A DNA stretch of 64,000 bases from the IMG/VR virus record IMGVR_UViG_3300035158_000183, positions 110,035 through 174,034 of that record; one strand, given 5' to 3'. Position 1 is the stretch's first letter; each line of letters begins with the position of its first letter. Shown one piece after another: positions 1 to 42,521 of this stretch. A program made the position numbers and the translations under genes. Under the pieces are notes generated by a model, which saw nothing but the letters and a program-made list of their open reading frames with translations, searched no databases and had not been told where the DNA came from. The DNA comes from a virus.

Positions 1-2194
1 CACGGTCAGCAGTTGCTGCGTTCAGGCTACTGACTCCCATGATACGAGCTGGATCCTCTAAAAAGCTTCGGGCCACAGCCTCGCTTCCAGCCAGTGTGCC
101 GGCATCTATCTTGCCAGCGGTTATGAGAGACATAGCCTCCATCTGCTGAGTCAGCTGGGCCATTAGGTTACGTTGGACCAGCTTGCCAGACCACATAGCC
201 TGCACGGCCTGTCCGCCTATCTCTGTAGGTGCGCCGGCTACCCCGAGCATGCCAGCTAATTCTTTCTGCGTTTGAGCCCTACCCATGAACTTAATATCTT
301 CACTGAAAAATTTCCACCACTTATCTCGACCTATGCGGTGCCGTTCGCGTACGTACACCGTAGCGGCATGATCGTCCGTAAGTTCGGCTGCAATAACTTC
401 AGCAGCTTCCCCGCCTGCTTGAGCCTCTGCCCATAGCGGTGCGCCAGTGTGGCGCTCAACTCCTATAAACCCTTCTTGTCCTATAGGAGTAGCGAATTCT
501 CGCACTTCTCCGATGCGAGCACCCTTAAGCTTAGCCAGTATCTCTTCATTCACCCTGAGGCCTTCTCGTAGGTTTATCTTCTTTGCTACAACACGCTCAT
601 ACTCCATCATATCGGCTGCTTGCTCTGCGATAAGTCCCTCTTCCAGGAACATTCTCTTGTTCAGTTCCTCAGCGAGAAAGTTTCCTTCGACCATTCCTCT
701 CTGTAGGGCCTGCTTCTCGTTAGCAGTCTTGGCATAGAACGTTACTAGCTGAGGAGCAGTATAAGCCTCGGCTGCCGTAGCCGCATGTCCACCGTGTACC
801 ATTCTCTGATAGGCTGGGCCCTGAATCTTGCGTTCTAACCGGCTATAGTATTCGCCAAAAGTACCAGCGAATGGTGTGGCCTTAGCCTTAGCTTCCGCCG
901 TGACACCCCACTCTCCCCTAATAAACTGGAAAGGTTGTTGTTCAGTACCCACTAAACGGCCTAGTGGGCCATATAGCTCTTCGGCAGGTGTCATACGCTC
1001 GTGCACGCCTGCCATAAATACACCTCTGGCTACGGGATCCGGACCGCCAACAGGCCACAACTGCCGTCCGCCTGCTGCAGCTTCCTCCACCATCTTTCCG
1101 CGTAATTCTTCAGTCATTTTGCCTGCATACACTGCTTGCTGGCCCAACATCCGTGCTCTAGCCCTGCCTCCAGAAGGCAGCACTGCTTCAGGCAAGGACC
1201 AAACTGCCATTGCTCTGTGTGATGCGTCCCGGTCATGAAGAGCTTCTATGATTCGATGATTTATCTCAATTACTGTGTTCTTAACACCTGTAGTGGTCTT
1301 CTGTCTGGATATGGCGTTGGCCAGAAGATCTACGTACTCATCAGCATAGTTGCGTATAGCTCCTGTCTCACCATAGGCACGCCGGGTTCTATATCTGGCT
1401 GTGAGTCGCTGTCCGCCATAGGCCATCCCTGCACCCTCTAGCGGAATATTTATAGCTTCTCTTCCGATAGCCGCTCTTAGTACAGGAACTTCAGCAAACT
1501 TACCGCCACCTAGTGCTTCCCGGACCATCTCCACACCACGCCAGTCTATCTCCCCGCCAGCTTTGCGCATAGCTTCATCCAGCCTCTCCTGTATGGCCAC
1601 GGCTTTGGGAAAGTCTTGAATAGGTTTTACTGGTCTGTCAATGGTCGTGCCCACAAACTCGCCCGGTGATATGGCTGCCTCCGCTCTGGCCGCCCATGGA
1701 GTGCGTCCGCCTAGAGTGGGATCTGCTGTTAGAGACCGCAGGCGCCCAGCAAAGACATCAGCATCACCCAGCAAATCCTGAATCTCAGCAGCAGCTTGCC
1801 CATAAGCCTTCTTGTATGTAGACTGGCCCATGATATTTTGGAAAGCTGTGTAAGCTTCCTCTTCACTATAACGGCCACCTGCCATAATAGCTTCATAGGC
1901 GGCAGCGGCTATATCATGCTGCAGCACCTTGCCGCCTGGGCCAATCTTGGATAGCTCGTGAATAGCCAGATCTGATGTGTCCACCGTGCTCTTGATGGTG
2001 CGTTGCAGGTTGAACCCACCCATACCAGGTACTCTTGCCGCTACTTCGCCAGCAATATCTCTGGGCATTGTAGTGAAAAGACCCCTGAGAGCGGGATGGG
2101 CCCGGTACAAACCTACGCCAGCACCTCCCAGCAGAGCTGCACCTGCAGTAAACCCCCAGAGTGGTGAACGTTCTTGATAATTGTTATCTGGCAT
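1..2194 (-). CDS. Large virion-associated protein, partial (>=731 aa, runs off window edge)
   Basis: ATG at 2194 overlaps the stop of the giant ORF (TAATG). Begins MPDNNYQERSPLWGFTAGAALLGGAGVGLY with an N-terminal Gly-rich hydrophobic segment. No stop seen; absent from the ORF track, consistent with no stop in the window. Confidence 0.75.
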   Translation of the reverse strand, partial: MPDNNYQERSPLWGFTAGAALLGGAGVGLYRAHPALRGLFTTMPRDIAGEVAARVPGMGGFNLQRTIKSTVDTSDLAIHELSKIGPGGKVLQHDIAAAAYEAIMAGGRYSEEEAYTAFQNIMGQSTYKKAYGQAAAEIQDLLGDADVFAGRLRSLTADPTLGGRTPWAARAEAAISPGEFVGTTIDRPVKPIQDFPKAVAIQERLDEAMRKAGGEIDWRGVEMVREALGGGKFAEVPVLRAAIGREAINIPLEGAGMAYGGQRLTARYRTRRAYGETGAIRNYADEYVDLLANAISRQKTTTGVKNTVIEINHRIIEALHDRDASHRAMAVWSLPEAVLPSGGRARARMLGQQAVYAGKMTEELRGKMVEEAAAGGRQLWPVGGPDPVARGVFMAGVHERMTPAEELYGPLGRLVGTEQQPFQFIRGEWGVTAEAKAKATPFAGTFGEYYSRLERKIQGPAYQRMVHGGHAATAAEAYTAPQLVTFYAKTANEKQALQRGMVEGNFLAEELNKRMFLEEGLIAEQAADMMEYERVVAKKINLREGLRVNEEILAKLKGARIGEVREFATPIGQEGFIGVERHTGAPLWAEAQAGGEAAEVIAAELTDDHAATVYVRERHRIGRDKWWKFFSEDIKFMGRAQTQKELAGMLGVAGAPTEIGGQAVQAMWSGKLVQRNLMAQLTQQMEAMSLITAGKIDAGTLAGSEAVARSFLEDPARIMGVSSLNAATADR

Positions 2195-5100
2195 TACCTA
2201 ACTCCCATCCTCTTGTGGGTTTCTCGCACTAATTCATCTCTAGAGTCAACGATTTCAATATCATACTCATCCGGTCCTTTAGTAGCCAGACCACACCGCA
2301 TCACCCTGCTGCCACTACCTCCATGGACCTTGGCTAGTGTTTCAGCATTCAGCTTGTGTATCATAACATCTTCTAGCTCAGCACGGGCTTGCATATCTCG
2401 TATAAGGTCTTCATTAATATACGGTTTTCTAGCTAGGGCTCGCTTCCGAGCACCCCAAAGATCGAACTCATGATGGTCGAGTCCGGCCATCTGCACATAC
2501 TGAAGCTTAACATCCTCCATATCAACTGATGGACTATTATGATAGATTCCAATTGGAGAACAATACATGTGCTGGTCTTCAACTTCAAAATCGAGCACCG
2601 TGCCTTCGTATTGGGATCTTTCAATGGTCTCTACTCGATAAGCTATAAAGTTTTCACCTACTATAGCTGAAAGAGAAGAGCTAAGTGACTCTACTGCATA
2701 TTGGGCTTTACCATTTCTCTTCTTTGGCCCATGCAAACTAGCAGGAATACCTTGTGCCTCATATAGCCGTTTGGCCATATAGCATAATTGTCTATTAGCA
2801 AGAATAAGTCTCCCCCGCTCATCTTTAGAAGCATCCCCTGTATTAAGGCCATCTAATAAAGCTGCTTGGCTCTTCTGAGTAATATTCTCTAACCAAGAAG
2901 GAGAATATTTTTGATCACAATATCTACCTACCCAATGATTAATAAGCCAACCGAAAATACTATTTGCTACTACTAAATATGCGCTTTCACTCTTAGGCTT
3001 CTTCTTAAATCTGATGATGCTATCTAATCCAAATTTATCTTTAATGATTTTTTGAGCTAATTCTAGAATTGGGACTTCATCTATATGCGCTGTAAACTGT
3101 ACTCCTCTCATTCTGTCTCCAACAGCCCATGTGTTCCCTCCTGCTAAGTAATAGCCAATTAACCAACAAGTAGCTTCATCTAATTTGATAAATCTATTGA
3201 TTGGTTTAATTCTTCCTGTCTTCGGACGTAAAGTATCATCAAGTATCAGAGTATTGTTTGGAAAACAATTAAGCTTACCAATATCTATTACTGGATCTTC
3301 ATCAGTATGTTTTAGTAAAGGAATAGGCAAGTACGTATTTGTTGTAAGTTTACCTATAGGCATCCATTTAGCAGAATAAGATTCATAATGCTTTGTAGTA
3401 CAGAAATTACATTTCCACATTGTTGTTGCATGCGTGCATACAGATTCAGGCTTTAAATTGTATTTGCATCGTTCAGTCTGAATCCCAAGCACAATATGAT
3501 TCTCTGTTGCTGCCATACAATAAACACTGTTGTGATGAGTTTTAACAATTATAATATCTTCATTTGTCTGTCTCTCAAAAACTTGTTTCACTTGGTTTTC
3601 TCCTTGCAAGGTAGTTAAAGACTGATCTAATTTTACGTCACTTGCATGGAGAATTCTACCATCTGATGTTAAGATATCTTGTTTCGGAGGAACACACCAC
3701 CCTAGCCAGTCTGCGCCTGGCAAGGAGTGGGTTTTGAAGTATTCCTTAGCCTTAAGTTCGCGTATCCATTCATCAAATGGGATCTTTCCATCTGTCTCGG
3801 CTCGCCACTGCTCTTCCATCTCCGGTGTGGCCCCGAAGCCTTCGGTCTTGCGCATAAGAGCAGTCGTAATTAGTGTCTGCTCATCTTCCTTGGTGGCTAT
3901 ACCCGCCTGCTCCTTAGCTCTAGCAGCTCCTGCTTCCTGTTGTAACCACTTGGACATATACAGCCGTTGTTCATTCTCAGGTATCAGGGACAGTATCTCC
4001 TCGCGCTCTTCTGGTGATCTGGCACCTGTGAAAGCAGCAAAGAAGTCACGCTCTCTGCGCGGCAAGGCCCTCATAGCAGCCACTGGTGACCCGAAGACGT
4101 CCAGCCCGAACATGGTCCGCTGCTGGAGTTCCTGTTCCTCCCTCACATCTGACCACCTATTATTGTGGCGCGCAATACGTTCTGCACGCTCTGCCTTCAC
4201 CCAATCCAGCATATCGAAATATTCATTAATGTCACGACGTTGGCGAATTTGTTCAGGAATTCTGTTGAAACCTATAGCGTGTAGTGCCATGTCGGCTGCT
4301 GGCTGTAGAAAGTTCTCCACAGGACGATTCCAAAATGCTGCCTGGGTGCCAATAGCCTCTGAAGCTATGTACTCCTCAATGGCTGATCGTTGTCTGATAA
4401 GCTTGGATGCCGGAGACATAGGCGTTAGATACTCCATAGGGGTCTCAATACCATGCAAGATAGTCTCGCTCATGCGTCCAGCCAAACGCTCAGCAGGAGT
4501 AAATCTTAGCTGCTCGAATTCATCGCGTAGCTCCTTGGCCTCGGCATACTTCTGCTCCGCCAGGACTTGCCCGTAGTCCTGGTCGCCCATCATGGCTACA
4601 GCCTTCATGCGGCTGCCGCGCTTGGTCACATCATAGCGGCGGGACTCCATCTGAGGAGCCTTGATAGTAATCTTCTGCCCCTCAAAGTGCTCAGTGGCGA
4701 AGTCCATTGCCTTCTGCATGTTGGTGATGGCGCCCACGCCCTGCAGCTCGATAACCATGTCGCCGAATTCTGCTGCCTTGATACGACGTGGATCTAAGAC
4801 CTCTGTGACGGTGATATCCCTGGTGCCTAGTAGCTCTGGTCTGAAGCGATACTCAGTTATCTTGCGGCGCTGCTTCCTGGACTTGACCTGTTCCTCAACA
4901 GTTCTGACTAGCTGCTTATCTTGATCCGATAGCCTACCAAAGTTTCGCTTAGCCTTCTGTAGCGTCCACTTATATTCGTCTGACCACATAGCCACATCGC
5001 CCAGGATTTTAAGGCGGTGGACGAGTGGATACTCCTCTGGGTGGACCCCAGCTACCTCAGGATGCAGAGCCTCGTACCCAGGACCCGGCAGTCTGATTTC

Positions 5101-8100
5101 AGCTTCCTTGATCTTCTGGAATGGATTGCCATACTTCAGATCTAAGAAGTAGTCTTCGGGCATCCAGGACGGCATGGTATTCTTTAGAGGGTTATAGGTC
5201 TCAAGATAGCTTCTGGTGCGCGGAATAAAACGTCTCACTGGCTCCGAGTTGTGCAGAAGTAAATAATCCCCAACAAAACAATGAGACTCTTCAACTTCTA
5301 TATCAAAAACTTTAACTCCCGTGGCAGGCTCGGCTTTTACATTTCTAACTGAGTAATATAAAAACCCATCCTGAGTAAACTGCCTACCATTAGAGTGTTC
5401 GAAACTTTCTTCCCAATCATTGTCGAGAATAATGCGGCAATATCTATCATGTTGGTCTTTGCTAAACTTAAGATAGGATCTAAGAGTTGGCTTGCGTTGT
5501 TCGCCCTGCGGATATTGATTGTTAGGTTTGGGAATTTCCAAGTAGTCATCTGTCACTGTGGCAAATACACCAAGTCTTGCCAGGACAATCCAAAGATCTC
5601 GCACTAGCCGATTAGACTTACTAGTAAACCCTCCTGAGTATTTCTCTTTATTACTCCACCCATCGCCACCAATTAAACCAGCAATTAGCTTAGGCAATAA
5701 AGAGATGGGCAGATCAATAAGCCACGCCAATTTCTTAGTGCCGGCATCGGTGCCGAATTGCTTAAGCCATCGTGCTAAAGGAATATTGTGTAGCCTTAAA
5801 GCACAACTTCCTTGTTCGGGTTTCGTAGATATGTTATAGCTAAATCCAAATCTGGCTGTGTATATTTCGCCCAAAATATGAGCTATATCCAGCTCTTCTA
5901 AAGCAAGAGTAAAAGTAATATCTCCAGCCTGTGGGTCAGCACTACCCTCAGCAATCCACCACCCCACAAACCAAGCAAGATCACGACCGAATACAACCTT
6001 ACGTGGAGTTCTTTTGGGAGAGTGCTTTTTCCGGTATGAATTTAATGCTTCCTTCGCATATTGATCGGGAACGATTTCTCTTAAATCTTTCCGAGACATA
6101 AGGGGATTATTCTCTAGTGCTTCTATAGCTTTGGCAAAATGTTTAGTGGCCCTAGAATAGATATAGTCGTCTGTCACCGTTGCTGTAGAAGCAGCGTAGG
6201 GACCAAAATCTATAGATATATCTTCGGAAGTAATACCACCGGGCAGCGGCATTACCACAAAATCATTTGGCTCAATAGCATCAGCTCGAACCCATTGCCA
6301 CGCAATCTCTGTGTCACACAATCCACAAACACTGCAATGTTTCTTAGGGCTATGTGGGGTGCATGGTCTGGCATGACTATCTCTACAGGGAATACGTTTA
6401 TAAACAGCAACAGGGTGATTCCCCGTAACTCTTACCGTCTTATTACCAACCCTGGTATTGATAGTAATCATCTGTTCGTCGGAGCCGCAGATCCTTTCAA
6501 AAACATTAAGTACTTGCTTTGTCTTCATACGGTGATCATAAACAGCATCACCTACTTGAATATCCTCGATGTTCTTCAGGCCATCCGGAGTAAAAACCTT
6601 CTCTCCGGCAGGTAAGCATGCACCTAGCGCACCACCCACATTGAGATGGCTCCATAGCCAGTACTCAGATCCGGTCTCCTTGCCCATGACGCCTAATGTT
6701 TGTAGGTTCTGGAAGAACTCCTCCCTACCCGTCATGGCATGCTCAATAGCTCCCTCAGCAAAACCGACAAGACCTACAGCCTCACGTCTGCGGTACATAA
6801 GCTCGTTGAACAACTGGCTACCTTCTTCGGGTACTACCGGCGCTCCAGGACGCAAGCCCCCAAGCTCATACGCTGGCTCGGTTTCCTTGCGGACATCCGG
6901 TCGATGTACATACTCTCCCTCATCTAGCATCCATTCCTCAGGACGTATTAGCTTGCGAGGCTTGAGAGCTTTGCCCACTGTTGCCGCAACAAGAGGACCG
7001 AAAAATGGTACATCTTTACCGTAAGTGCCTGCAAGCGGGGCCGGCCGCTCATACTGATATTTTCTTTCGTAGTGGTACTTCCACTCGTCTGACCCGAACA
7101 GGGCCTTTAATGGATGGAGCCATGGGTCGTGTTCCCACTTCTCTTCTTCAGTACCATACATGCCCTTCTGGAATGCTCTGGTCCGCAACCTCTCCATGAA
7201 GTGAGGGCGGTAGTATTCTATGCGGCCACCCTCGTAAGGAGTAGAATTGTGCACCAAGAATGTACCCGCCTGGAATAGATGATCCGGGTGATCTACTTCG
7301 AAGTCATAGACAATATCATCATAATCTTCTGTTTCTATCGCGCAAATAACAGAGTAAAGTTTAGAATTACAAACTTTATAGAAATATGGAATCCTACCTG
7401 GAGTCCACTTGATCCTATGCCTCCCCCTATAATCATTCTTCTCAAACTTACAAAGATAAGGATATTCTCCTAAGTTTAACAATATAGAGAATATTGCATC
7501 AAGAAGCCCTCGTCTACAAGAAGAGATAACACAGGTTCTTTGATCTAGATGTCCATCTCCACGCCGATAACCCTCAACCAATTGTTCTTTAAAAGCTTTT
7601 GGTGCAGACATAAATACTTGTGGAAATATTTTGTCTTGTTGGCGCTCGCTATTATAAAACAGCTCAAAGAACATTCTGGCAAGCAAAGAACTGCAGATCC
7701 TTACGACCCAACAGCCTTCGTTTGTTTTCTTCTTGCCTTTCTTAAACCTTACTGTTGGTGTAATGCCAAATTCTTTCTCAGATATAGAGACAACATCATC
7801 AACTATCCATCGTTCTGATTTAGCGTGAACAGTTTCTATCATGTGGGGAATATCATTCTTATAAGAAATATTGCCTTCTGCTAAGAAGTAACCGAATAGA
7901 CGGCCTAGTTCTGGTGTTAATGTTACAACTCTAGGGATTGAAGCCCCCCTAGATCTTTGAACCTTGCCACTATACCAATTCTTCTGTGCGGGGAGAAGAA
8001 TATCTTCACAGATTAAGAAAAGACCAGTCTTTATCAAATCTTCAGAAATAAGCTCAGTTGATGTTTCCTTTAGCTGTGGGATAGGTATCTCTACTCTGTC

Positions 8101-10026
8101 GTTTACTCGAAGCCCTTTCGCTTCTACTTCAACAATTTCTTCTCCTCTAAGAACCGGAACCTTATGATTCCCTGTTAGCTTGGTCTCTGTAATCCAACTA
8201 GCTCTTGTTTTGAATTTGATAATATTACCAGAAAACTTTCTTGTAAATATATTGACGACCTTAGCCTCTTCGCCATCTCTGCCTATTAAGACATCACCAA
8301 TACGAACTTCATGGGCTTCCTTAAATGTTCCGGCATAACACATTGGAATCATTGAGGAATTCGCCAAGCACCTCCCGAACTCCCACCACCTACCCTTCCT
8401 GATGGGCACTTCCTTCTCACCAGAGTAAATTGCCTCCAGCTCCTCGGAAGTCTCAGTAGTACCCAGCAAGTTGAGTCCAGGTATAGCCGCCATTAGATTG
8501 CCAGAAAGCAGTCCCATGCCAGTGCTAAGGGCGCCCCAGGCTGCCACTCCACCTAGAAACCCTAGAGCCATTGGGTGCCTAGCCTTAGCAAGCAATCTAC
8601 CCCCGGGTAGTTTCTTGACAGCTTTACCCAGCTTAGACTCCCATACGGCGTCAGCTATCTTATCAACATGTTCTTTACGCAGATCTTCAGTAATATCTGC
8701 GAAGGCACGCTCGGGGCCTGCTGCGTGGCGTTGCCGAACTGCTGCACCCAATAAACCACCATAGCCGGCCAGGCCCCCCGCCAGCATACCTACGCCACCG
8801 AACCCTACGGCAGTCTTAAGGGATACCAGCCCAGGTGTCACAGCTTCCTGTTCTCGCAATGATTCTGATAGACCCAAAGCTTCTGATGCTCTTGCCCGTG
8901 CAAGGTTCAAATCAGTAAACATAGAAGCGACGCCGTAGAATAGACCTTCATCAAATCTAGGGGCTAGGGCCGTATAGAGACCGGTTGCCGCCCCAATAGC
9001 CAGACCAGCAGGTCTAAACATTTGTCCTGGTCGCTTGAACAGAAAGGCGCCAGCTGCGGCACCACCGGCAGTACCAAGGGCTGGTGCCCAAGCACTACCT
9101 TCCGCCCTCAAATAATCGTAATATTCTAGACCCTTATACGCAGCGGCCAGTCCTAAACCTTTCATCATATACCGGCCGGCCATCTGCATAGCAGAGCCAG
9201 GCTGGACCTTCATGCTGCTGACCACAGGTATACGATTTAGGATAGGAAACACCTCGAACGGCTTCGAGAGTAGCATGTTAAGACGGCCCGCCGTAGTAGC
9301 CGCCTTGGCACGCATCAGCTTCCCAAGTATTTCACCCTTAGCCACTCGGCGCTGCATCTTCTCACTGAGCTGTATATCTTTACCAAAAATCCTAATCTTC
9401 TCGCGGAACTTGGCTCCCAATATCAGCTTGCGACGTCTCTCCGAAGGAGCCATCTCATCCAGCCACTCCTTGTAGTCTATCGGGAGATCTAGCATCTCAT
9501 ATTCGCTTCTTAATAGAGCCTCATTGAGTGACTGATATTCTCCTAGTTTGGTCTTGCTAAGCCGTGCGTAGTAGTCGGCAATGGCAGAACCCTTCTGAGT
9601 GCCTGCAGTGATCTGCAGCCCCATCCCGATAGCTTTACTCTCGCGCGTTACATCACCAAATATCGCACCGGTACGCTCCATCGTCAGACCGCCACCTGTA
9701 CCAAAGATATTTCGGAGATATCCTCCGTACTGGCCTGCAGCCTTCAGCTGGGCCTCTGGCAGATCTATTCTAGACCAGGTTTCTAGGGGCGATAGGAACT
9801 CAGAGATACGGAAGGTTCTGAGTATAGCTGCAGGGAAGGCTGTCTCGGCTGTTCTAATTCCCTGTAGGTAAACATCCCACAGTCTCCCGCCACCGTAAGG
9901 TATAAATCCAGACGCCATTATACCTGCACTAGCGAATCCCAGTTTAGCTAGCGGGGATAGTGTCTCGCTTGGTTGTGGGGGCTGTGGCCCGAAGGCTGTT
10001 ATCGGATCAGCTGGCAATAATTTCAC
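2194..10026 (-). CDS. Tape-measure-like/ejected giant virion protein, precursor with three inteins (mature ~1391 aa), with a degenerate SNase-like domain
   Basis: 2610-aa ORF directly after the tail chaperones; Gly/Ala-rich hydrophobic helices in the N-terminal 540 aa; three C...HN/S intein units. Confidence 0.7.
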   Translation of the reverse strand: MKLLPADPITAFGPQPPQPSETLSPLAKLGFASAGIMASGFIPYGGGRLWDVYLQGIRTAETAFPAAILRTFRISEFLSPLETWSRIDLPEAQLKAAGQYGGYLRNIFGTGGGLTMERTGAIFGDVTRESKAIGMGLQITAGTQKGSAIADYYARLSKTKLGEYQSLNEALLRSEYEMLDLPIDYKEWLDEMAPSERRRKLILGAKFREKIRIFGKDIQLSEKMQRRVAKGEILGKLMRAKAATTAGRLNMLLSKPFEVFPILNRIPVVSSMKVQPGSAMQMAGRYMMKGLGLAAAYKGLEYYDYLRAEGSAWAPALGTAGGAAAGAFLFKRPGQMFRPAGLAIGAATGLYTALAPRFDEGLFYGVASMFTDLNLARARASEALGLSESLREQEAVTPGLVSLKTAVGFGGVGMLAGGLAGYGGLLGAAVRQRHAAGPERAFADITEDLRKEHVDKIADAVWESKLGKAVKKLPGGRLLAKARHPMALGFLGGVAAWGALSTGMGLLSGNLMAAIPGLNLLGTTETSEELEAIYSGEKEVPIRKGRWWEFGRCLANSSMIPMCYAGTFKEAHEVRIGDVLIGRDGEEAKVVNIFTRKFSGNIIKFKTRASWITETKLTGNHKVPVLRGEEIVEVEAKGLRVNDRVEIPIPQLKETSTELISEDLIKTGLFLICEDILLPAQKNWYSGKVQRSRGASIPRVVTLTPELGRLFGYFLAEGNISYKNDIPHMIETVHAKSERWIVDDVVSISEKEFGITPTVRFKKGKKKTNEGCWVVRICSSLLARMFFELFYNSERQQDKIFPQVFMSAPKAFKEQLVEGYRRGDGHLDQRTCVISSCRRGLLDAIFSILLNLGEYPYLCKFEKNDYRGRHRIKWTPGRIPYFYKVCNSKLYSVICAIETEDYDDIVYDFEVDHPDHLFQAGTFLVHNSTPYEGGRIEYYRPHFMERLRTRAFQKGMYGTEEEKWEHDPWLHPLKALFGSDEWKYHYERKYQYERPAPLAGTYGKDVPFFGPLVAATVGKALKPRKLIRPEEWMLDEGEYVHRPDVRKETEPAYELGGLRPGAPVVPEEGSQLFNELMYRRREAVGLVGFAEGAIEHAMTGREEFFQNLQTLGVMGKETGSEYWLWSHLNVGGALGACLPAGEKVFTPDGLKNIEDIQVGDAVYDHRMKTKQVLNVFERICGSDEQMITINTRVGNKTVRVTGNHPVAVYKRIPCRDSHARPCTPHSPKKHCSVCGLCDTEIAWQWVRADAIEPNDFVVMPLPGGITSEDISIDFGPYAASTATVTDDYIYSRATKHFAKAIEALENNPLMSRKDLREIVPDQYAKEALNSYRKKHSPKRTPRKVVFGRDLAWFVGWWIAEGSADPQAGDITFTLALEELDIAHILGEIYTARFGFSYNISTKPEQGSCALRLHNIPLARWLKQFGTDAGTKKLAWLIDLPISLLPKLIAGLIGGDGWSNKEKYSGGFTSKSNRLVRDLWIVLARLGVFATVTDDYLEIPKPNNQYPQGEQRKPTLRSYLKFSKDQHDRYCRIILDNDWEESFEHSNGRQFTQDGFLYYSVRNVKAEPATGVKVFDIEVEESHCFVGDYLLLHNSEPVRRFIPRTRSYLETYNPLKNTMPSWMPEDYFLDLKYGNPFQKIKEAEIRLPGPGYEALHPEVAGVHPEEYPLVHRLKILGDVAMWSDEYKWTLQKAKRNFGRLSDQDKQLVRTVEEQVKSRKQRRKITEYRFRPELLGTRDITVTEVLDPRRIKAAEFGDMVIELQGVGAITNMQKAMDFATEHFEGQKITIKAPQMESRRYDVTKRGSRMKAVAMMGDQDYGQVLAEQKYAEAKELRDEFEQLRFTPAERLAGRMSETILHGIETPMEYLTPMSPASKLIRQRSAIEEYIASEAIGTQAAFWNRPVENFLQPAADMALHAIGFNRIPEQIRQRRDINEYFDMLDWVKAERAERIARHNNRWSDVREEQELQQRTMFGLDVFGSPVAAMRALPRRERDFFAAFTGARSPEEREEILSLIPENEQRLYMSKWLQQEAGAARAKEQAGIATKEDEQTLITTALMRKTEGFGATPEMEEQWRAETDGKIPFDEWIRELKAKEYFKTHSLPGADWLGWCVPPKQDILTSDGRILHASDVKLDQSLTTLQGENQVKQVFERQTNEDIIIVKTHHNSVYCMAATENHIVLGIQTERCKYNLKPESVCTHATTMWKCNFCTTKHYESYSAKWMPIGKLTTNTYLPIPLLKHTDEDPVIDIGKLNCFPNNTLILDDTLRPKTGRIKPINRFIKLDEATCWLIGYYLAGGNTWAVGDRMRGVQFTAHIDEVPILELAQKIIKDKFGLDSIIRFKKKPKSESAYLVVANSIFGWLINHWVGRYCDQKYSPSWLENITQKSQAALLDGLNTGDASKDERGRLILANRQLCYMAKRLYEAQGIPASLHGPKKRNGKAQYAVESLSSSLSAIVGENFIAYRVETIERSQYEGTVLDFEVEDQHMYCSPIGIYHNSPSVDMEDVKLQYVQMAGLDHHEFDLWGARKRALARKPYINEDLIRDMQARAELEDVMIHKLNAETLAKVHGGSGSRVMRCGLATKGPDEYDIEIVDSRDELVRETHKRMGVR
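2536..3696 (-). mobile_element. Intein 3 (387 aa) with degenerate LAGLIDADG endonuclease and Cys-rich insert
   Basis: WLGW/CVPPKQ start; ATENH; IGYYLAGG and LDGLNTGDA; ends GIYHN/S; strongly AT-rich. Confidence 0.92.
5248..6618 (-). mobile_element. Intein 2 (457 aa) with LAGLIDADG endonuclease and Cys-rich insert
   Basis: ALGA/CLPAGEKV start; VTGNH; VGWWIAEG and IAGLIGGDG; ends LLLHN/S. Confidence 0.94.
7246..8370 (-). mobile_element. Intein 1 (375 aa) with LAGLIDADG homing endonuclease
   Basis: EFGR/CLANSS start; block B LTGNH; FGYFLAEG and VEGYRRGDG; ends FLVHN/S; AT-richer than flanks. Confidence 0.93.
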
Positions 10027-10739
10027 CTGCCTCGGCGATACATTTTGCGCTTAAATTCCAGCTCTTGCTGTCTGGCACGCTGGATAGCTTCTTCTCTAAT
10101 CTTCTGCATACGTGCTCTACCCTCAGGATCTTCGTCGGCCGGCCTATCAAACTCTTGATATGCTTCGGTATCTTGCCTAAGCACATCTTCTACCAGATAT
10201 GGCTTCTCCACCTCATCCTCAGGCTTCTGAAATGCATGTTCTTCTTCTATTATACCGCGATCTAACAGGACTTTCTCGGCTTGGATGAAGTTATAGACTA
10301 GCTGTTGATAGTTGAGGCTGTCCAGAGATTCGAATGTATATCCAGCAAATACAATGCAGATTACACGCTTCATGTAATCGGCAGTAACATTCAGCTGTTT
10401 CCGGTAGGTCTTGTATAGCTCTTCGGTATAATCTTGAGAATCAACATCTACACCTGACAAAAACAGTGCAAGCCTGGCAGTGGTCTCTGAGATGCCTGCC
10501 GGTAACTGATTGAAATTCTTCTCAGTTTGCCACTCATTCTCGACTATCTGCTCGAAGATACTATCATATATAGCACTTTTCAGGCTAACCTTGGGGGCCA
10601 TATCCAGAAGCAAGGCATATTGGCTGGCCTGCTTTATAGATGGCAGACGGAAGATAACCTCTACACCCTCTACTTCGAAGGCATACAGGTCTTCGGATTT
10701 CTTCTGGATTGCCTCCAGGGCCCGCGTGAGACCATCCAT
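10023..10739 (-). CDS. Putative tail assembly chaperone 2
   Basis: Lies between tube genes and the tape-measure-like gene; shares a VIFR...IFE...LPAG pattern with its neighbour. Confidence 0.55.
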   Translation of the reverse strand: MDGLTRALEAIQKKSEDLYAFEVEGVEVIFRLPSIKQASQYALLLDMAPKVSLKSAIYDSIFEQIVENEWQTEKNFNQLPAGISETTARLALFLSGVDVDSQDYTEELYKTYRKQLNVTADYMKRVICIVFAGYTFESLDSLNYQQLVYNFIQAEKVLLDRGIIEEEHAFQKPEDEVEKPYLVEDVLRQDTEAYQEFDRPADEDPEGRARMQKIREEAIQRARQQELEFKRKMYRRGR

Positions 10740-10742
10740 CGG

Positions 10743-11483
10743 CTACATCTTGATAGTCATCTGGGCGACGAACCCTGGCTCCAGGAATAGACTCTGGAGA
10801 CGGACCTGCTGGACAACCATCCCCATAGCACCAGCGGGTAGTGCCGCTCGCTGTACAGGATCCATCCCAGGCCACAGGACACACTTATCAAAGATCATTT
10901 CTTCGACCTGATGCTCCTGCATCTCGTTGAATCGCGGGTTTGCGTTGATCTGAATCCACTCCTGGCGCTTCAGATAACGGTAAATAAACACATGATTCTC
11001 GATGTTTAGCAGGAATACGTCCCCATGCATACGCTTCCACTCCATTATTGCCTGTGGACCTGGAGCATTGGGATTGATTTGCTTCAGCCTCTCACAGATA
11101 GCCTTGACTCTCTCCACAGGGTCCTCTGGGAAGTCCTCAGGCGGCTCCTGGGGAGATGTAGTCGCTGGTGCGACCTCTGAAGCCTCCGGCATCTGTGGGA
11201 CGGCTGTAGCGGTCTCTGGGGCCGCTGGGGGAACCTCAGGGACTGCTGCAGGCGGAGCGTTATTAGCTTCCGCATCAGCTACCTGCTCGGCCGTGAGCAT
11301 ACCGGCACCGCCGCCGAATCCAGCTGCACTCATAGCAGCCTTGTCCGCACCCATGTCAAAGGGCTTGTCGTCGCCATAGACCTCACTGAAAGACTTCTTG
11401 CCAGCCTTCATCATCTTCTCGGCCTTACGGGCGAGTTCCTGCTCTCGTGGCCCTACCGCCACTTTGCGTTTCTGTTTAGTCAT
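10743..11483 (-). CDS. Putative tail assembly chaperone 1 (Pro/Ala/Glu-rich N-terminus)
   Basis: WKRMHGDVF...FIYRYLKRQEW...CVLWP...LPAG pattern and synteny. Confidence 0.6.
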   Translation of the reverse strand: MTKQKRKVAVGPREQELARKAEKMMKAGKKSFSEVYGDDKPFDMGADKAAMSAAGFGGGAGMLTAEQVADAEANNAPPAAVPEVPPAAPETATAVPQMPEASEVAPATTSPQEPPEDFPEDPVERVKAICERLKQINPNAPGPQAIMEWKRMHGDVFLLNIENHVFIYRYLKRQEWIQINANPRFNEMQEHQVEEMIFDKCVLWPGMDPVQRAALPAGAMGMVVQQVRLQSLFLEPGFVAQMTIKM

Positions 11484-11498
11484 GTTGTAACTCCTTGG

Positions 11499-12365
11499 TT
11501 AAACGATATTTCTTGCTATGAATTGGAACTCTTCTAGGATGGGCTCCCCTGAGACTTCTATTGACTGAGATTGCCCCGTGAAGGAGACATCCATGAGTTT
11601 CTTGACTGTATGATTGGCAGACGGCTTGCTGGTGTCGCCGTACACGATCCAAATGTCTATAGGTGGGTACTGGTCTGCTCTGCGGTGCGAAAGAGCATCC
11701 TCAGTGGCCAACAGCTGGTCCTCAGGGAGGTTTTTACTAAAGAGCCGCTCCCTGAGCAGGGGGTTGGCAGTATCACTGCCATACCATATGGCATCCTCAA
11801 ATACTTCCGCCCACTGCTCGAACCTATCGTCTGGTAAGTTACCGAGATCTCTAAAGAATTGATTGTATGCCTGCTGGGCATTCTTCTTATCCTTAGCAGC
11901 AGCCCATTCCATGGACTGCTCCACATTGGCCTTCATAGTCTTATGTTTCTCAGCTTCACGAGCAGCTGAAAGGAATGTGCCAGGTGTGTCTCCTACCCTA
12001 TATCCTTTAGTCAGACGGCCTTCCTTATTCAGGGTGTAGCGGGGAGTAGTCCACTCTCCACCAAGTTTGAGGTTCTGGTAGCGTATCATCGGATAGCTGA
12101 GATATCCGGATTCCTTGAAGGCCAACATGATAGCTCCTTGTACCACAACCTTGCCTTCTCCTACAAATGAATAGTACTGGCTGGCGTATCCCCATACAGG
12201 TGTCTTCTGCTGAACCGCATTAAAGCTTACAGCGACAGCTGAGTCTATGACTACATCTCCGAACATCACATTGATCTGTGACCCAGAGAAGTAATCGTAC
12301 TCATACGTTGTCTCCCCTACGAATGGAGGAGTAATAAGCTCGCCTTTATGGTTCCTGAGTGCCAT
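11499..12365 (-). CDS. Tail tube-like protein (paralog 3)
   Basis: YFSGSQINVMFGD...QQKTPVWGYAS...VQGAI; ends EEFQFIARN. Confidence 0.6.
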   Translation of the reverse strand: MALRNHKGELITPPFVGETTYEYDYFSGSQINVMFGDVVIDSAVAVSFNAVQQKTPVWGYASQYYSFVGEGKVVVQGAIMLAFKESGYLSYPMIRYQNLKLGGEWTTPRYTLNKEGRLTKGYRVGDTPGTFLSAAREAEKHKTMKANVEQSMEWAAAKDKKNAQQAYNQFFRDLGNLPDDRFEQWAEVFEDAIWYGSDTANPLLRERLFSKNLPEDQLLATEDALSHRRADQYPPIDIWIVYGDTSKPSANHTVKKLMDVSFTGQSQSIEVSGEPILEEFQFIARNIV

Positions 12366-13321
12366 TAAATAAATGGATTCCTACGTCTGATATGAGCTGA
12401 AAACATCTGCTCCTTCATAAGATCAGATGCTGTCTTATTCCAGCTCTTGCTTACCCCATGACCGTCGATGGCTCGGGTTTCCACAAGCCTCATGGGGTCT
12501 AGGTCTCTTGCCACATACTGTACCACGTTCTCTGAGTAGATGTCTTCTATAGAGAAGGTCTGGCCTTCCTGGAAGAACTCTACCCCCCACAGGCCCATAT
12601 GAGAAATAGCACCATACTCATTAGCGAAAACCAGGCTGATATCAATGGGAGGCATCTGGTCGGCCAGCATGGTGGTGTAAAGCTGATTGTCGAAGTCACT
12701 AGAGCCAGTACTAAACTGTCTAAGTTTAAGCCGCATAATGTCTGCGAATACGTGTTCATGGAAGATAGTAAATACCATACTACCTGAGATAGTACGAGGC
12801 CCTCTGGTATATGCACGCGGATACACAGCCCCCAAGGGTCGGACTGGAGCTTTATCCCTAAAACTGCCTATAGAGATAGTCTGAATGTCTCCCAGTGTCT
12901 TGGATGTAGGTAAATTCCGGATGTTTTGCAGGATTGCATCCAGTTCACTCAATTCACTATTTCTTACCTGCTGAGCTTGTATATAGTCGGCAAGCTGTTT
13001 GGTGGTCAAGATCTCCCGATTGTTTTCATACCAAATTTCTGCCTTTATGGCCTCTTTCTCTATCGCCCACATCTCGTCCAGCAACAGCTTGTCGTCTATA
13101 GGGTCATGGGGATAGTGAACTACTACCTTGATGTCAGCGCCACTATATGTCCCATAGAATTTGGCGTAATCTGATACGACAGCAGGATTCTTGCTATTCT
13201 GGGCCTTCTTGGCCATAGGGCTATCCGGATGTGGCGGCGGGGGTGGCTTATACACATAGTGTCGTGCAAGGGCGTCCTCGCTGGGCATGGGGCGCTTGGC
13301 GACTATACTAGAATAAACCAT
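12365..13321 (-). CDS. Tail tube-like protein (paralog 2)
   Basis: YSGADIK...IQTISI...RDKAPVR...RGPRTISGSMVF...ADQMPPIDI...ANEYG aligns by eye with 13398..14078. True start may be 13288. Confidence 0.7.
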   Translation of the reverse strand: MVYSSIVAKRPMPSEDALARHYVYKPPPPPHPDSPMAKKAQNSKNPAVVSDYAKFYGTYSGADIKVVVHYPHDPIDDKLLLDEMWAIEKEAIKAEIWYENNREILTTKQLADYIQAQQVRNSELSELDAILQNIRNLPTSKTLGDIQTISIGSFRDKAPVRPLGAVYPRAYTRGPRTISGSMVFTIFHEHVFADIMRLKLRQFSTGSSDFDNQLYTTMLADQMPPIDISLVFANEYGAISHMGLWGVEFFQEGQTFSIEDIYSENVVQYVARDLDPMRLVETRAIDGHGVSKSWNKTASDLMKEQMFSAHIRRRNPFI

Positions 13322-13346
13322 ATTTTAGACCTTCAGGAGATGGGAG

Positions 13347-13376
13347 AACCGGGTCAGGCTTAGTCCTGACCCGGTT
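13347..13376 (-). terminator. Stem-loop after tail tube gene
   Basis: Perfect 12-bp inverted repeat AACCGGGTCAGG/CCTGACCCGGTT with 6-nt loop; weak U-tail. Confidence 0.6.
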
Positions 13377-13397
13377 TATGGGCAGATTGAACACAGA

Positions 13398-14078
13398 TTA
13401 CGATGGGTTAATACCCTGCATTGCTACGTGCTGACCCTGGGACTGCCAAGGAAGCATACCGTGAGCAATATATGTGAAACTGTGCTCGGAGACAATATCG
13501 TCAACTGATACCCCGTAGCCGGAGTTCATCAGCTCGACGCCTAGAATCTTCATGATGGCTAGTGCGCCGTACTCATTTGCAGCTGCTAGTACGATATCGA
13601 ATGGTGGAATCTGGTCAGCGTACCATGGAATCGCTGGCTTCTGATCAGAACCTGCCGATGTTATCTCACTCTCCTGCTGTTGTGCTGTAGCACCCGGGAC
13701 GTTGATACCTTCAGGATCTGCCGCTACACTTGTCTCTCCGACAACGATTTCCTGACTGTACTCTGGACGCAGGTCGTCTACATCGGACAGGAAGTAGAGG
13801 CGTCTTGCTTCTTCTCCTGGTGCTCGGTTCGCAAGCTCCCACATCAATGGGTCTTCGTCGAACTGGATGAATACCAGTGACCCTGCGATGCCACGCTTGC
13901 CTCTTGCGAAGGCACGTGGGTCCGCAGATCCCATTGTATAGATGGGCGCTTTCTCTCGAGAGATAGAATAGCTGATTCCCTGTAGGGTACCGATCACCTT
14001 GGTCCCGAATGTGGCCTTGATGTCGATCCCAGAGAAGCTATTATACCCTCTGGTGAATTCGCTCTGTTGTACTGCCAT
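13398..14078 (-). CDS. Major tail tube protein
   Basis: Immediately follows the sheath gene; FSGIDIKATFG...LQGISYSISREKAPIYTMG...GKRGIAGSLVF. Confidence 0.75.
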   Translation of the reverse strand: MAVQQSEFTRGYNSFSGIDIKATFGTKVIGTLQGISYSISREKAPIYTMGSADPRAFARGKRGIAGSLVFIQFDEDPLMWELANRAPGEEARRLYFLSDVDDLRPEYSQEIVVGETSVAADPEGINVPGATAQQQESEITSAGSDQKPAIPWYADQIPPFDIVLAAANEYGALAIMKILGVELMNSGYGVSVDDIVSEHSFTYIAHGMLPWQSQGQHVAMQGINPS

Positions 14079-14099
14079 AGTCTATCTCGACCTCCCTAG

Positions 14100-16016: not shown

Positions 16017-16018
16017 TA

Positions 16019-16744
16019 TTAACCCTCCTCAATGTTAGTTGATACATTTACGTTCAGCGCCAGACGCTTAAGCTCCTGAGAGCCGAACTGATACGTATCT
16101 TCAGTCCTTACCATGAAGGTAATAGGATATTTAGTTAGTGGCAGCTCGCCAATGGTTACTCTCGCTCTGTCTCCAACGCCCTCTTCAATAGTCTTAATCC
16201 TGTGCAGTCCGAAATACCATCGGTAGCTATCCATCACGTTCTCAAACCATAAGACACGCTTAAAAGCTGTGTAGTCGTCTCGGGCGTATATATTAAATAC
16301 AACCCAGTTATCATAGAAGCGCCCCATGGTCACCAGCTTCTCACTTGGATGTTCGGGGTGCTGTTGTATACTTCTTACATGGGCTACTACTTCTCGCACT
16401 CTTCCAGTACCCGCAGGGCCCTTATTAAACTGTCCTGGCGCTCGGGCCCTCATGAAGAAGGTGATAGCCTCTGTGTCAACGGACTCAGGCGGGTCATCCG
16501 CCAGAACCAGCAGCCTCTTGTCATCTGGTACATGCTCGGAGGCCTGCCTGGAAGCGACAGCTTCCTGGACAAGCTCGTAGAAGCCCAGAAGATTGGCTCC
16601 TGGGTGTGTGGCAGTATCTACAGCACCGATGTTCTGGATATATCTATTGATAGCCAGAGCAGCGTCTGCTTCAGAAAGCCTAACAGCCCCTCCTAGATCT
16701 GGAATAGCTGTTATATTGTCTGTTTTTGACACCATACCATACAC
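16019..16744 (-). CDS. Putative tail terminator/neck protein
   Basis: Directly upstream of the sheath gene; GRFYDNWVVFNIYA. Confidence 0.5.
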   Translation of the reverse strand: MYGMVSKTDNITAIPDLGGAVRLSEADAALAINRYIQNIGAVDTATHPGANLLGFYELVQEAVASRQASEHVPDDKRLLVLADDPPESVDTEAITFFMRARAPGQFNKGPAGTGRVREVVAHVRSIQQHPEHPSEKLVTMGRFYDNWVVFNIYARDDYTAFKRVLWFENVMDSYRWYFGLHRIKTIEEGVGDRARVTIGELPLTKYPITFMVRTEDTYQFGSQELKRLALNVNVSTNIEEG

Positions 16745-34211: not shown

Positions 34212-34239
34212 ACTATACTAGACCTGGATGGAGTGGTTC

Positions 34240-34731: not shown

Positions 34732-34747
34732 GTTGTTGATCTCCTAA

Positions 34748-35170: not shown

Positions 35171-35215
35171 AAATACCTCCTTACAGAGTGATACACTTTA
35201 AATTATAGTATGATT

Positions 35216-40132: not shown

Positions 40133-40142
40133 ACAGAGTCAC

Positions 40143-42163: not shown

Positions 42164-42166
42164 TTC

Positions 42167-42466: not shown

Positions 42467-42521
42467 ACTTCCTCCGGTAATACTCTTTGTATCAGAAATT
42501 TGCGTACCTGTAAAGGTCTTT

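What the first reader, a model, noticed from the sequence alone, without database searches (positions are those of the whole stretch)
2194..10026. Three inteins in a single tail/ejection structural protein
Seen: inteins of 375, 457 and 387 aa, all Cys1...His-Asn/Ser+1, make up 1219 of 2610 aa and are AT-richer than the exteins. Known: phage inteins favour conserved motifs of terminases, polymerases, helicases and RNR; the terminase here has none. Inference: the insertion sites (GRWWEFGR|STPY, GGALGA|SEPVRR, DWLGW|SPSVD) mark unusually conserved motifs, so this may be more than a passive tape measure.
Basis: partly seen in the sequence, partly recalled or inferred. Interest (0 to 1): 0.7.

Follow-up and report, generated by a model that had tools for sequence, protein, structure and literature searches.

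The report
Three inteins in phage tail-module protein
One 2610-codon gene of an uncultured 174-kb phage carries three genuine self-splicing inteins in an almost cysteine-free virion protein that is probably not the tail ruler, and about a third of that protein's sampled relatives also carry inteins, at 14 different positions.

Summary
ORF 2194-10026 (-) encodes 2610 aa with three inteins of 375, 457 and 387 aa. Each has Cys1, TxxH, two LAGLIDADG motifs and HN|Ser+1, and each is AT-richer than the exteins. The spliced product is 1391 aa, matching intein-free homologues of 1386-1393 aa that run straight through all three junctions.

The host protein is a homologue of Bacillus phage 0305phi8-36 gp145. 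That virion protein lies between the tail chaperonins and gp146, the gene the literature assigns as tape measure.

The family is very large (1577 clusters). Of 297 sequences, 100 carry inteins, at 14 separate sites that all fall in conserved motifs. Three inteins per protein was the most I saw.

The C-terminal ~980 residues fold confidently (pTM 0.82) into a globular module. Its only recognisable part is a non-conserved SNase-like domain. The intein-rich core has no relative among solved structures.

The extein has 1 Cys in 1391 aa. Its neighbour in the tape-measure position has none and carries an invariant DxDxD motif like that of RNA polymerase. Both are probably tail-lumen cargo, which is an inference.

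The inteins themselves are ordinary; the host family as an intein hotspot is the new part. Earlier notes show this scan already met the same family, with inteins, on other genomes.

The parts
2194..10026 (-). Precursor ORF, 2610 aa: a gp145-family virion protein interrupted by three inteins. The last three bases are the stop codon, which overlaps the start of the next gene by one base.
8371..10026 (-). Extein 1 (aa 1-552). Carries Gly-rich uncharged hydrophobic stretches at aa 24-42, 310-330, 405-430 and 484-524, and ends in the conserved motif RKGRWWEFGR.
7246..8370 (-). Intein 1 (375 aa) at family site a. Has Cys1, TGNH, LAGLIDADG motifs LFGYFLAEGN and LVEGYRRGDG, and VHN|S. GC 0.39.
6619..7245 (-). 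Extein 2 (209 aa), part of the conserved core domain.
5248..6618 (-). Intein 2 (457 aa) at family site b. Has Cys1, TGNH, a Cys-rich insert after block B, LAGLIDADG motifs FVGWWIAEGS and LIAGLIGGDG, and LHN|S. GC 0.43.
3697..5247 (-). Extein 3 (517 aa): the end of the core domain, the SNase-like OB domain (about window 4501-4839) and a helical C-terminal module.
2536..3696 (-). Intein 3 (387 aa) at family site f. Has Cys1, TENH, a Cys4-like insert and YHN|S. Its first LAGLIDADG motif reads LIGYYLAGGN, with Gly (codon GGA at 3139-3141) where 8 of 10 other site-f alleles have Glu and one has Asp, so the homing endonuclease is probably inactive. GC 0.36.
2197..2535 (-). Extein 4 (113 aa), the C-terminal end. 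It holds the only extein cysteine.
10743..11483 (-). Upstream tail-chaperonin homologue (0305phi8-36 gp143 / ME3 gp033 type).
   Evidence: BLASTP E 2e-11 to 3e-9
10023..10739 (-). Second small gene in the gp144 (second chaperonin) position. No detectable similarity to gp144.
1..2194 (-). First 731 codons of the downstream 1497-aa gene, which is translationally coupled, cysteine-free and Ala/Gly-rich and sits in the tape-measure position. Its invariant RHPxxGPxSxQ...GDxDxD motif lies outside the window.

Best explanation
The gene encodes the precursor of a 1391-residue, almost cysteine-free virion protein of the 0305phi8-36 gp145 family. That family is encoded in the contractile-tail gene block, between the tail chaperonins and the gene in the tape-measure position.

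Three unrelated class-1 inteins (about 22% identical to one another) have invaded it independently, at three conserved motifs that I call family sites a, b and f. Each carries a LAGLIDADG homing endonuclease.

After translation each intein should excise itself by the standard pathway. Cys1 makes a thioester, the chain is transferred to Ser+1, the terminal Asn cyclises, and an O-to-N shift restores the peptide bond. This leaves a scarless protein at sites a and b and a His-to-Ser change at site f.

The endonucleases spread the inteins into intein-free alleles during co-infection. Intein 3 has lost one catalytic acid of its endonuclease and is probably decaying.

Shown here: intein anatomy, contiguity of the exteins, family membership, synteny, the family-wide hotspot, and the globular fold of the C-terminal two thirds.

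Inferred: splicing activity, and the role of the mature protein. I read it as a tail-lumen protein that leaves the particle with the DNA, together with its cysteine-free neighbour that carries a DxDxD motif, rather than as the length ruler.
For: - **Intein anatomy.** Pfam intein and LAGLIDADG hits; blocks A, B, F and G and Ser+1 in all three.
- **Separate origin.** Intein GC is 0.36-0.43 against 0.53 in the exteins.
- **Exteins are contiguous.** Intein-free homologues of 1386-1393 aa, up to 69% identical overall, align straight through the junctions.
- **Homing.** Same-site inteins are mostly 31-77% identical and different-site inteins at most 27%; intein identity does not track extein identity.
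- **Family and synteny.** tblastn and BLASTP to gp145 of 0305phi8-36, WH1, Edson, MTATph1 and ME3. The gene order tube, tube paralogue, gp142, chaperonin, gp145, large protein is shared.
- **Hotspot.** 100 of 297 family sequences carry verified inteins at 14 sites, and the sites lie in conserved motifs: 8 separate sites beat all but 6 of 100,000 random draws.
- **Fold.** pLDDT 85.9 and pTM 0.82 for 986 aa; 87.2 and 0.85 for the core domain alone.
- **Cysteine depletion.** 1 Cys in 1391 aa and 0 Cys in 68 of 71 homologues, against 1.06% Cys in the genome's long ORFs.
- **Neighbour.** 0 Cys and invariant D1095/D1097/D1099 in 30 syntenic homologues.
- **Precedent.** A tape-measure-fused virion RNA polymerase is known in Thermus phage P23-45 (PMC10770324).
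Against: - No splicing or virion data exist for this phage.
- Virion presence is known only for 0305phi8-36 gp145, from that record's annotation.
- The core domain has no structural or sequence relative of known function, so the ejection role rests on gene position, hydrophobic Gly-rich segments and lack of cysteine.
- Intein 2 (34.4 bits) and intein 3 (23.7 bits) fall below Pfam's Intein_splicing cut-off of 35.8 when scored alone.
- The neighbour's polymerase reading rests on motifs only; it has no PDB or Pfam match by sequence.
- 0305phi8-36 gp146 lacks the DxDxD motif.
Confidence: 0.8

Rival explanations
1. The protein is the tail tape measure itself, or the first half of a two-gene tape measure, and the inteins simply sit in a ruler protein.
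For: It directly follows the chaperonin genes, the usual place of a tape measure. It has Gly-rich hydrophobic segments like tape measures. The part before the core domain varies in length among relatives: the BLAST match starts at about residue 350 in ME3, 600 in 0305phi8-36, 810 in MTATph1 and 960 in WH1. Inteins in tape measure proteins have been reported in actinobacteriophages (bioRxiv 10.1101/2025.01.02.630785).
Against: Hardies et al. assign the tape measure of 0305phi8-36 to orf146 from tail length, and say the chaperonins are one gene removed from it (PMC2147016). The C-terminal 980 residues are a compact globular fold rather than an extended helix. The core is conserved across 1577 clusters, whereas the same paper notes that tape measures diverge quickly. 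There are no Pfam or PHROG tape-measure hits.
Confidence: 0.12
2. The mature protein is an injected enzyme (a nuclease or a cell-envelope hydrolase), and the inteins mark its active site, as they do in polymerases and ribonucleotide reductases.
For: The only invariant charged residues of the core (R31, K132, E248, R251, R252, R298 in A2 core-domain numbering) include E248/R251/R252, one to five residues after site b, and R31, close to site a. An SNase-like OB domain is present, at Z about 10, rmsd 2.6-3.0 over about 100 residues. Unchecked earlier notes of this scan report a PD-(D/E)XK nuclease domain in other family members.
Against: No fold or sequence match to any enzyme was found for the core. 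The SNase-like domain is the least conserved part (conservation 0.39-0.40) and is missing from the roughly 1260-aa subfamily. By eye it lacks the SNase acidic and Arg constellation. At site f the conserved His is replaced by Ser in every intein-bearing allele, so that residue is dispensable.
Confidence: 0.2
3. The Hint domains are not selfish inteins. Instead they act as regulatory or autoprocessing modules that time the maturation of the virion protein.
For: Three inteins must all splice before assembly. Conditional protein splicing is known in other systems (general knowledge, not tested here).
Against: Presence is sporadic among close relatives: homologues 69% identical have none. Homing-endonuclease domains are present. 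GC content is foreign. Intein and extein identities are uncoupled. One endonuclease is decaying. All of this is the signature of the homing cycle.
Confidence: 0.05

Closest known systems
Class-1 inteins with LAGLIDADG homing endonucleases, including multi-intein hosts and neighbouring sites (for example haloarchaeal MCM, PMC10643990)
   Same: Cys1, TxxH, terminal HN and a +1 nucleophile are present, with two LAGLIDADG motifs between the splicing halves. Insertion is into conserved motifs, and several alternative sites occur in one host protein. Neighbouring sites (a with a2; f with f2 or g) were never occupied together in my sample.
   Different: The host is a tail-module virion protein of unknown function, not a replication, repair or nucleotide-metabolism enzyme. 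The +1 residue is Ser or Thr in 125 of 130 cases, in keeping with a cysteine-free extein.
Bacillus thuringiensis phage 0305phi8-36 gp145 (ORF145, 'virion structural protein', found in the virion by mass spectrometry according to the record)
   Same: Homologous over the core and the C-terminal module. It holds the same place after the tube paralogues and chaperonins and before a giant protein and the hub. It has no cysteine.
   Different: gp145 is 1930 aa, has a longer N-terminal part and carries no intein. None of the six cultured phages with a homologue has an intein in it.
Thermus phage P23-45 gp96, a tape measure fused to a virion RNA polymerase (PMC10770324)
   Same: It is a precedent for large cargo in the tape-measure position that passes through the tail. 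The window phage's downstream neighbour has an invariant DxDxD motif preceded by an RxP...S.Q motif, like the beta-prime barrel.
   Different: The resemblance concerns the neighbour, not the intein host. It rests on motifs only and there is no detectable sequence homology. P23-45 is a siphovirus.
Inteins in actinobacteriophage tape measure, portal and minor capsid proteins (bioRxiv 10.1101/2025.01.02.630785)
   Same: Shows that phage structural proteins can host inteins.
   Different: Those are different protein families, and no comparable multi-site hotspot is described in the passages I read.

Membership tests
Class-1 intein | N-terminal nucleophile (Cys1 or Ser1) at the upstream junction | tested here: met
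   CLANSS, CLPAGE and CVPPKQ directly follow the N-extein motifs.
Class-1 intein | Block B TxxH and block G ending in His-Asn, followed by a Ser/Thr/Cys +1 residue | tested here: met
   TGNH, TGNH and TENH; VHN|S, LHN|S and YHN|S.
Class-1 intein | Match to Hint / intein splicing domain profiles above the curated threshold | tested here: met
   PF14890 scores 82.4 bits on the whole protein (cut-off 35.8). Scored alone, intein 1 gets 42.4 bits, intein 2 gets 34.4 and intein 3 gets 23.7; the last two are below cut-off but significant, at E 2e-8 and 5e-5.
Class-1 intein | Removing the element restores a contiguous, conserved host protein | tested here: met
   The spliced length of 1391 aa matches homologues of 1386-1393 aa, and alignments run through all three junctions.
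Class-1 intein | Protein splicing actually occurs | not testable with these tools
   Needs expression and mass spectrometry.
LAGLIDADG homing endonuclease (double-motif) | Two LAGLIDADG motifs, each with a catalytic acidic residue | tested here: met
   Inteins 1 and 2 have E and D. Intein 3 has G and D, so the feature is not met for intein 3. Of the 10 other site-f alleles, 8 keep E, one has D and one showed no motif match.
0305phi8-36 gp145 family | Significant sequence similarity over the core and C-terminal module | tested here: met
   tblastn E 7e-30 to 2e-11; BLASTP E 4e-43 to ME3 gp035; Foldseek against viral models hits the gp145 model A7KUR9.
0305phi8-36 gp145 family | Gene position between the tail chaperonins and the giant tape-measure-position gene | tested here: met
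0305phi8-36 gp145 family | Presence in the virion | not testable with these tools
   Known only from the annotation of the 0305phi8-36 record.
Tail tape measure protein | Extended, mostly helical ruler without a compact tertiary fold | tested here: not met
   Residues equivalent to spliced 414-1391 fold compactly (pTM 0.82). The N-terminal 413 residues were not folded.
Tail tape measure protein | Match to tape-measure profiles (Pfam, PHROGs) | tested here: inconclusive
   No hit in Pfam or PHROGs for any extein, but tape measures are often missed by profiles.
Staphylococcal-nuclease-like (SNase/OB) domain | SNase fold | tested here: met
   Z 9.8-10.1, rmsd 2.5-3.0 over 93-106 residues to 1sta, 3bdl and extended Tudor domains. 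Foldseek E 2e-3 to 5e-2.
Staphylococcal-nuclease-like (SNase/OB) domain | Catalytic Ca-binding Asp/Asp/Thr and Arg/Glu/Arg residues | tested here: inconclusive
   The family consensus in this stretch (VTVxxVxxP...LQGxG) shows no DGD or DTPE equivalents, but no residue-level structural alignment was available.

The most novel reading that the evidence does not exclude
The gp145-type protein and its cysteine-free neighbour with a DxDxD motif form a two-protein cargo that a very large clade of uncultured (and a few cultured) big myoviruses loads into the tail lumen with dedicated chaperonins and sends into the cell ahead of the DNA. The neighbour would act as a virion RNA polymerase. The gp145 core would be a fold with no solved relative, serving an essential, slowly evolving step such as forming the envelope conduit or piloting the DNA or polymerase. 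That constraint would explain why it has become one of the densest intein hotspots outside replication enzymes.
Probability: 0.3. Interest if true: 0.75.

Novelty: new member of a known kind. Interest (0 to 1): 0.55.

Why it matters
Surveys of inteins find them mostly in replication, repair and nucleotide-metabolism enzymes. The same phage follows that rule elsewhere: class II ribonucleotide reductase (two inteins), RecA and DNA polymerase III alpha.

A tail-module virion protein with at least 14 insertion sites, and inteins in about a third of its sampled members, widens that picture. Because inteins persist only at sites that cannot drift, it also marks an uncharacterised domain with no solved structural relative as functionally constrained.

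The map of sites gives exact places to mutate. It also gives ready-made junction peptides for virion proteomics in cultured relatives (Acinetobacter phage ME3, Bacillus phages 0305phi8-36 and WH1). Those experiments could settle whether gp145-type proteins and their neighbours are injected.

The site-specific intein families, all using Ser or Thr at +1, may also be useful as orthogonal splicing tools.

Tried and rejected
- **PHROGs and Pfam on every extein, and on seven diverse family members at E up to 1.** Nothing meaningful.
- **Profile of 71 homologues against PDB sequences.** Only chance hits at E of 0.4 or more.
- **Foldseek against PDB.** The 986-aa model found only the SNase-like domain. 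The 379-aa core model found nothing; best E was 3.
- **VIA-align wide search with the core model.** Best Z 5.5, on a helical hairpin only.
- **ESM Atlas feature search.** Only unnamed viral clusters at 0.76, below the level of a lead.
- **Megablast of the gene against GenBank phages.** No match.
- **Single-protein scan of IMG/VR.** No close relative; the alignment-based scan worked.
- **Idea that gp145 or gp146 of 0305phi8-36 is the YonO-like polymerase named in PMC7824862.** Rejected: accession ABS83659.1 falls 44 entries before gp145 (ABS83703.1), which by serial order puts it near ORF101.
- **Two upstream small proteins sharing a domain, as gp143 and gp144 do.** No similarity found.
- **Downstream 1497-aa protein.** No BLAST similarity to gp146 of the cultured phages, no Pfam hit and no PDB hit by profile.
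- **Introns rather than inteins.** Rejected, because the frame is open throughout and the Hint motifs are present.
Full report
**Observation**

The window has one open frame on the minus strand from 10026 to 2194: GTG start, 2610 codons. It adjoins the upstream gene's stop codon with no gap and overlaps the start of the downstream gene by one base.

| Segment | Residues | Length (aa) | Window coordinates | GC |
|---|---|---|---|---|
| Extein 1 | 1-552 | 552 | 8371-10026 | 0.53 |
| Intein 1 | 553-927 | 375 | 7246-8370 | 0.39 |
| Extein 2 | 928-1136 | 209 | 6619-7245 | 0.54 |
| Intein 2 | 1137-1593 | 457 | 5248-6618 | 0.43 |
| Extein 3 | 1594-2110 | 517 | 3697-5247 | 0.53 |
| Intein 3 | 2111-2497 | 387 | 2536-3696 | 0.36 |
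| Extein 4 | 2498-2610 | 113 | 2197-2535 | 0.47 |

The inteins total 1219 aa and the exteins 1391 aa. The three AT-rich troughs also show in the sliding composition profile.

**Are they inteins?**

- Pfam finds Intein_splicing (82.4 bits, cut-off 35.8) and LAGLIDADG_3 (73.5 bits) on the whole protein. Both families hit each intein scored alone.
- All three begin with Cys, carry TxxH (TGNH, TGNH, TENH), have two LAGLIDADG motifs and a block F, and end in His-Asn followed by Ser.
- They are only about 22% identical to one another. They therefore arose by three separate invasions, not by duplication within the gene.

**Contiguity of the exteins**

- The spliced product is 1391 aa.
- A search with extein 3 found 179 relatives. 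Many are intein-free proteins of 1386-1393 aa, up to 73% identical over extein 3 and 69% over the whole length.
- These relatives align without a break across all three junctions. So do the homologues in cultured phages.

**What the host protein is**

tblastn against GenBank phages finds only six distinct cultured phages:
- Bacillus phages 0305phi8-36, vB_BceM_WH1, Edson and KLEB27-3
- Moorella phage MTATph1
- Acinetobacter phage ME3

The hit in every case is the homologue of 0305phi8-36 ORF145. That record calls it a virion structural protein identified by mass spectrometry.

Gene order is shared one gene at a time.

| Window or genome position | Match |
|---|---|
| Window 14100-16016 | Tail sheath |
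| Window 13398-14078 | Tail tube, gp140 homologue (E 1e-38) |
| Window 12365-13321 | gp141 homologue |
| Window 11499-12365 | gp142 homologue |
| Window 10743-11483 | gp143-type tail chaperonin (E 2e-11 to 3e-9) |
| Window 10023-10739 | Small gene in the gp144 slot; no detectable similarity |
| Window 2194-10026 | This gene (gp145 homologue) |
| Genome 107735-112228 | 1497-aa gene in the tape-measure position |
| Genome 101258-107728 | 2156-aa gene in the hub position |

Hardies et al. assign the tape measure of 0305phi8-36 to orf146 from tail length. They note that the chaperonin genes are one gene removed from it (PMC2147016). The intein host is therefore the tape measure's upstream neighbour, not the annotated ruler.

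**Structure**

- I folded an intein-free homologue that covers spliced residues 414-1391, using a 71-sequence alignment. The model has mean pLDDT 85.9 and pTM 0.82. That is a compact multi-domain protein, not an extended ruler.
- The only part with relatives among solved structures is a staphylococcal-nuclease/OB-like domain at about spliced 898-1010 (Z about 10, rmsd 2.5-3.0 over about 100 residues).
- That domain is the least conserved stretch and is absent from the roughly 1260-aa subfamily. By eye it lacks the nuclease's acidic constellation.
- The conserved core (spliced 517-895) holds most intein sites. Folded alone it gives pLDDT 87.2 and pTM 0.85. It matches nothing with Foldseek (best E 3) or with VIA-align (best Z 5.5, on a helical hairpin).
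- The N-terminal 520 residues were not folded. They contain four Gly-rich uncharged stretches of 19-41 residues, as seen in tape measures and other membrane-inserting phage proteins.

**A family-wide intein hotspot**

- A profile of the core domain finds 1577 clusters (at 50% identity) with E of 1e-3 or better, and 1135 with E of 1e-30 or better.
- I mapped insertions of 120 aa or more with an HMM of the intein-free protein. I then checked each one for Cys/Ser1...xN|[Ser/Thr/Cys] boundaries (His before the Asn in 128 of 130).
- Of 297 family sequences (some duplicated between sources), 100 carry verified inteins: 74 have one, 22 have two and 4, including the window, have three.
- Three was the most I saw. 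The combination a+b+f occurred only in the window.
- The +1 residue is Ser in 103, Thr in 22 and Cys in 5.
- Neighbouring sites (a with a2; f with f2 or g) were never occupied together. This fits the interference described for haloarchaeal MCM (PMC10643990).

| Site (spliced coordinate) | Junction context | Inteins found |
|---|---|---|
| a (552) | RWWEFGR\|S | 41 |
| a2 (558) | YEG\| | 8 |
| about 590 | | 1 |
| about 623-626 | ERPAPL\| | 4 |
| about 703-706 | | 5 |
| 744 | | 1 |
| b (761) | GGxxGx\|[ST]E | 17 |
| c (787) | | 5 |
| about 805 | GDPF\| | 6 |
| d (819) | LPGxGY\| | 7 |
| e (843) | KIL\| | 4 |
| f2 (1275) | DW\| with Cys+1 | 4 |
| f (1278) | DWLGW\|S | 19 |
| g (1296) | | 7 |

**Are the sites conserved?**

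- Local conservation (ten residues around each junction, measured on 71 intein-free homologues) puts the window's sites at the 95th, 81st and 97th percentiles.
- Random triples of junctions reach their mean in 414 of 100,000 draws.
- Eight well-separated family sites are matched in only 6 of 100,000 draws.

**Homing**

- Same-site inteins are homologous, mostly 31-77% identical to the window's. Inteins at other sites are at most 27% identical.
- Intein identity does not follow extein identity. For example, one allele is 77% identical in the intein but 56% in the extein; another is 46% against 65%.
- The closest relatives of the window protein have no intein at all.
- This is the pattern of repeated invasion and loss.

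**The His-to-Ser scar at site f**

At site f, every intein-bearing allele has Ser where the listed intein-free alleles have His or Asn, none Ser. The mature protein therefore carries a His-to-Ser scar. That conserved His is evidently dispensable.

**A decaying endonuclease in intein 3**

The first LAGLIDADG motif of intein 3 reads LIGYYLAGGN. The Gly (codon GGA, window 3139-3141) replaces the Glu that 8 of the 10 other site-f alleles keep; one has Asp and one showed no motif match. This endonuclease is probably inactive. Inteins 1 and 2 keep both acidic residues.

**Cysteine depletion and the neighbour**

I followed these two leads after reading earlier notes of this scan, and tested them here.
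- The spliced extein has 1 Cys in 1391 aa, and 68 of 71 intein-free homologues have none. Long ORFs of this genome contain 1.06% Cys. The three inteins hold 31 Cys.
- The gp145 homologues of all four cultured phages I fetched are also cysteine-free.
- The downstream 1497-aa protein has no cysteine either. Nor do 34 syntenic homologues, or the gp146-position proteins of those four cultured phages.
- In an alignment of 30 syntenic homologues, the very few invariant residues include R1041, S1049 and D1095/D1097/D1099, within RHPxxGPxSxQ...SPMVGxxGDxDxD.
- From my own knowledge, this looks like the beta-prime barrel of multisubunit RNA polymerases (RAPTLHRLGIQ...NADFDGD).
- ME3 gp036 carries the motif. 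0305phi8-36 gp146 and the MTATph1 homologue do not.
- A tape-measure-fused virion polymerase is established in Thermus phage P23-45 (PMC10770324).

**Reading**

The inteins are ordinary selfish elements.

The host protein and its neighbour share four features. Both are cysteine-free. The two genes are translationally coupled. They follow dedicated chaperonins. Both carry Gly-rich hydrophobic segments. I read them as tail-lumen cargo that leaves with the DNA, and put this at about 50%. The rivals are set out in their own section.

**Novelty**

- Inteins of this class, multi-intein proteins and inteins in phage structural proteins are all known.
- In the papers I could search, I found no description of the gp145 family as an intein host. 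None of the cultured members has an intein.
- Earlier notes of this same scan report the same family with two to four inteins on other genomes, and about 20 sites. Within the scan, then, this is a repeat finding on new DNA.

**Context in this genome**

The record is a 174,034-bp IMG/VR virus contig, estimated about 91% complete. The window is its last 64 kb. It carries at least eight inteins:
- three in this gene
- two in a class II ribonucleotide reductase
- one in RecA
- one in DNA polymerase III alpha
- one in the portal protein

Noticed in passing
window 24847-28104 (-): The 1085-aa portal protein also carries an intein with a LAGLIDADG domain. It runs from about aa 340 (GGTANR|CFDNQ) to about aa 686 (ISIQGN|STAQ). 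The penultimate residue appears to be Gly rather than His. The C-terminal junction was not checked against intein-free portals.
   Followed up: partly
window 1-2194 (-) and genome C1:107735-112228 (L071:7239-11729:-): The 1497-aa gene in the tape-measure position has no cysteine and is rich in Ala and Gly. It carries an invariant RHPxxGPxSxQ...GDxDxD motif (D1095/1097/1099) in 30 syntenic homologues, resembling the catalytic barrel of RNA polymerase beta-prime. ME3 gp036 has the motif and 0305phi8-36 gp146 does not. No PDB or Pfam match by sequence.
   Followed up: partly
genome C1:27715-32676, 34230-36323, 39309-43883 (L070:1716-6677, 8231-10324, 13310-17884): Further inteins outside the window: two in a class II ribonucleotide reductase (1653 aa), one with a LAGLIDADG_2 endonuclease in RecA (697 aa), and one in DNA polymerase III alpha (1524 aa). 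The genome has at least eight inteins in all.
   Followed up: partly
window 5248-6618 and 2536-3696 (-): Inteins 2 and 3 each carry a Cys-rich insert just after block B (C-x8-C-x9-C-x2-C-x2-C, and C-x10-C-x8-C-x2-C). Same-site alleles share 4-6 Cys in that stretch. It may be a zinc-binding module of the DNA-recognition region.
   Followed up: partly
window 35216-40132 (-): A 1638-aa protein in the packaging block combines an RNase H-like exonuclease, a Cas4-like nuclease (PHROG 1706) and an ABC1/protein-kinase-like domain. It looks like a polyvalent protein.
   Followed up: no
window 11499-14078 (-): Three consecutive paralogous genes related to the tail tube (homologues of 0305phi8-36 gp140, gp141 and gp142). 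PHROGs labels this family 'major head protein', which is evidently a propagated misannotation.
   Followed up: partly
L056, P0194, P0014, P0134 (family members): Other three-intein alleles exist with different site combinations: 706+c+e, a+d+f, and 626+d+f. Mini-inteins of 150-190 aa occur at sites a and b (P0030, P0071, P0153, P0242, P0010, L064).
   Followed up: partly
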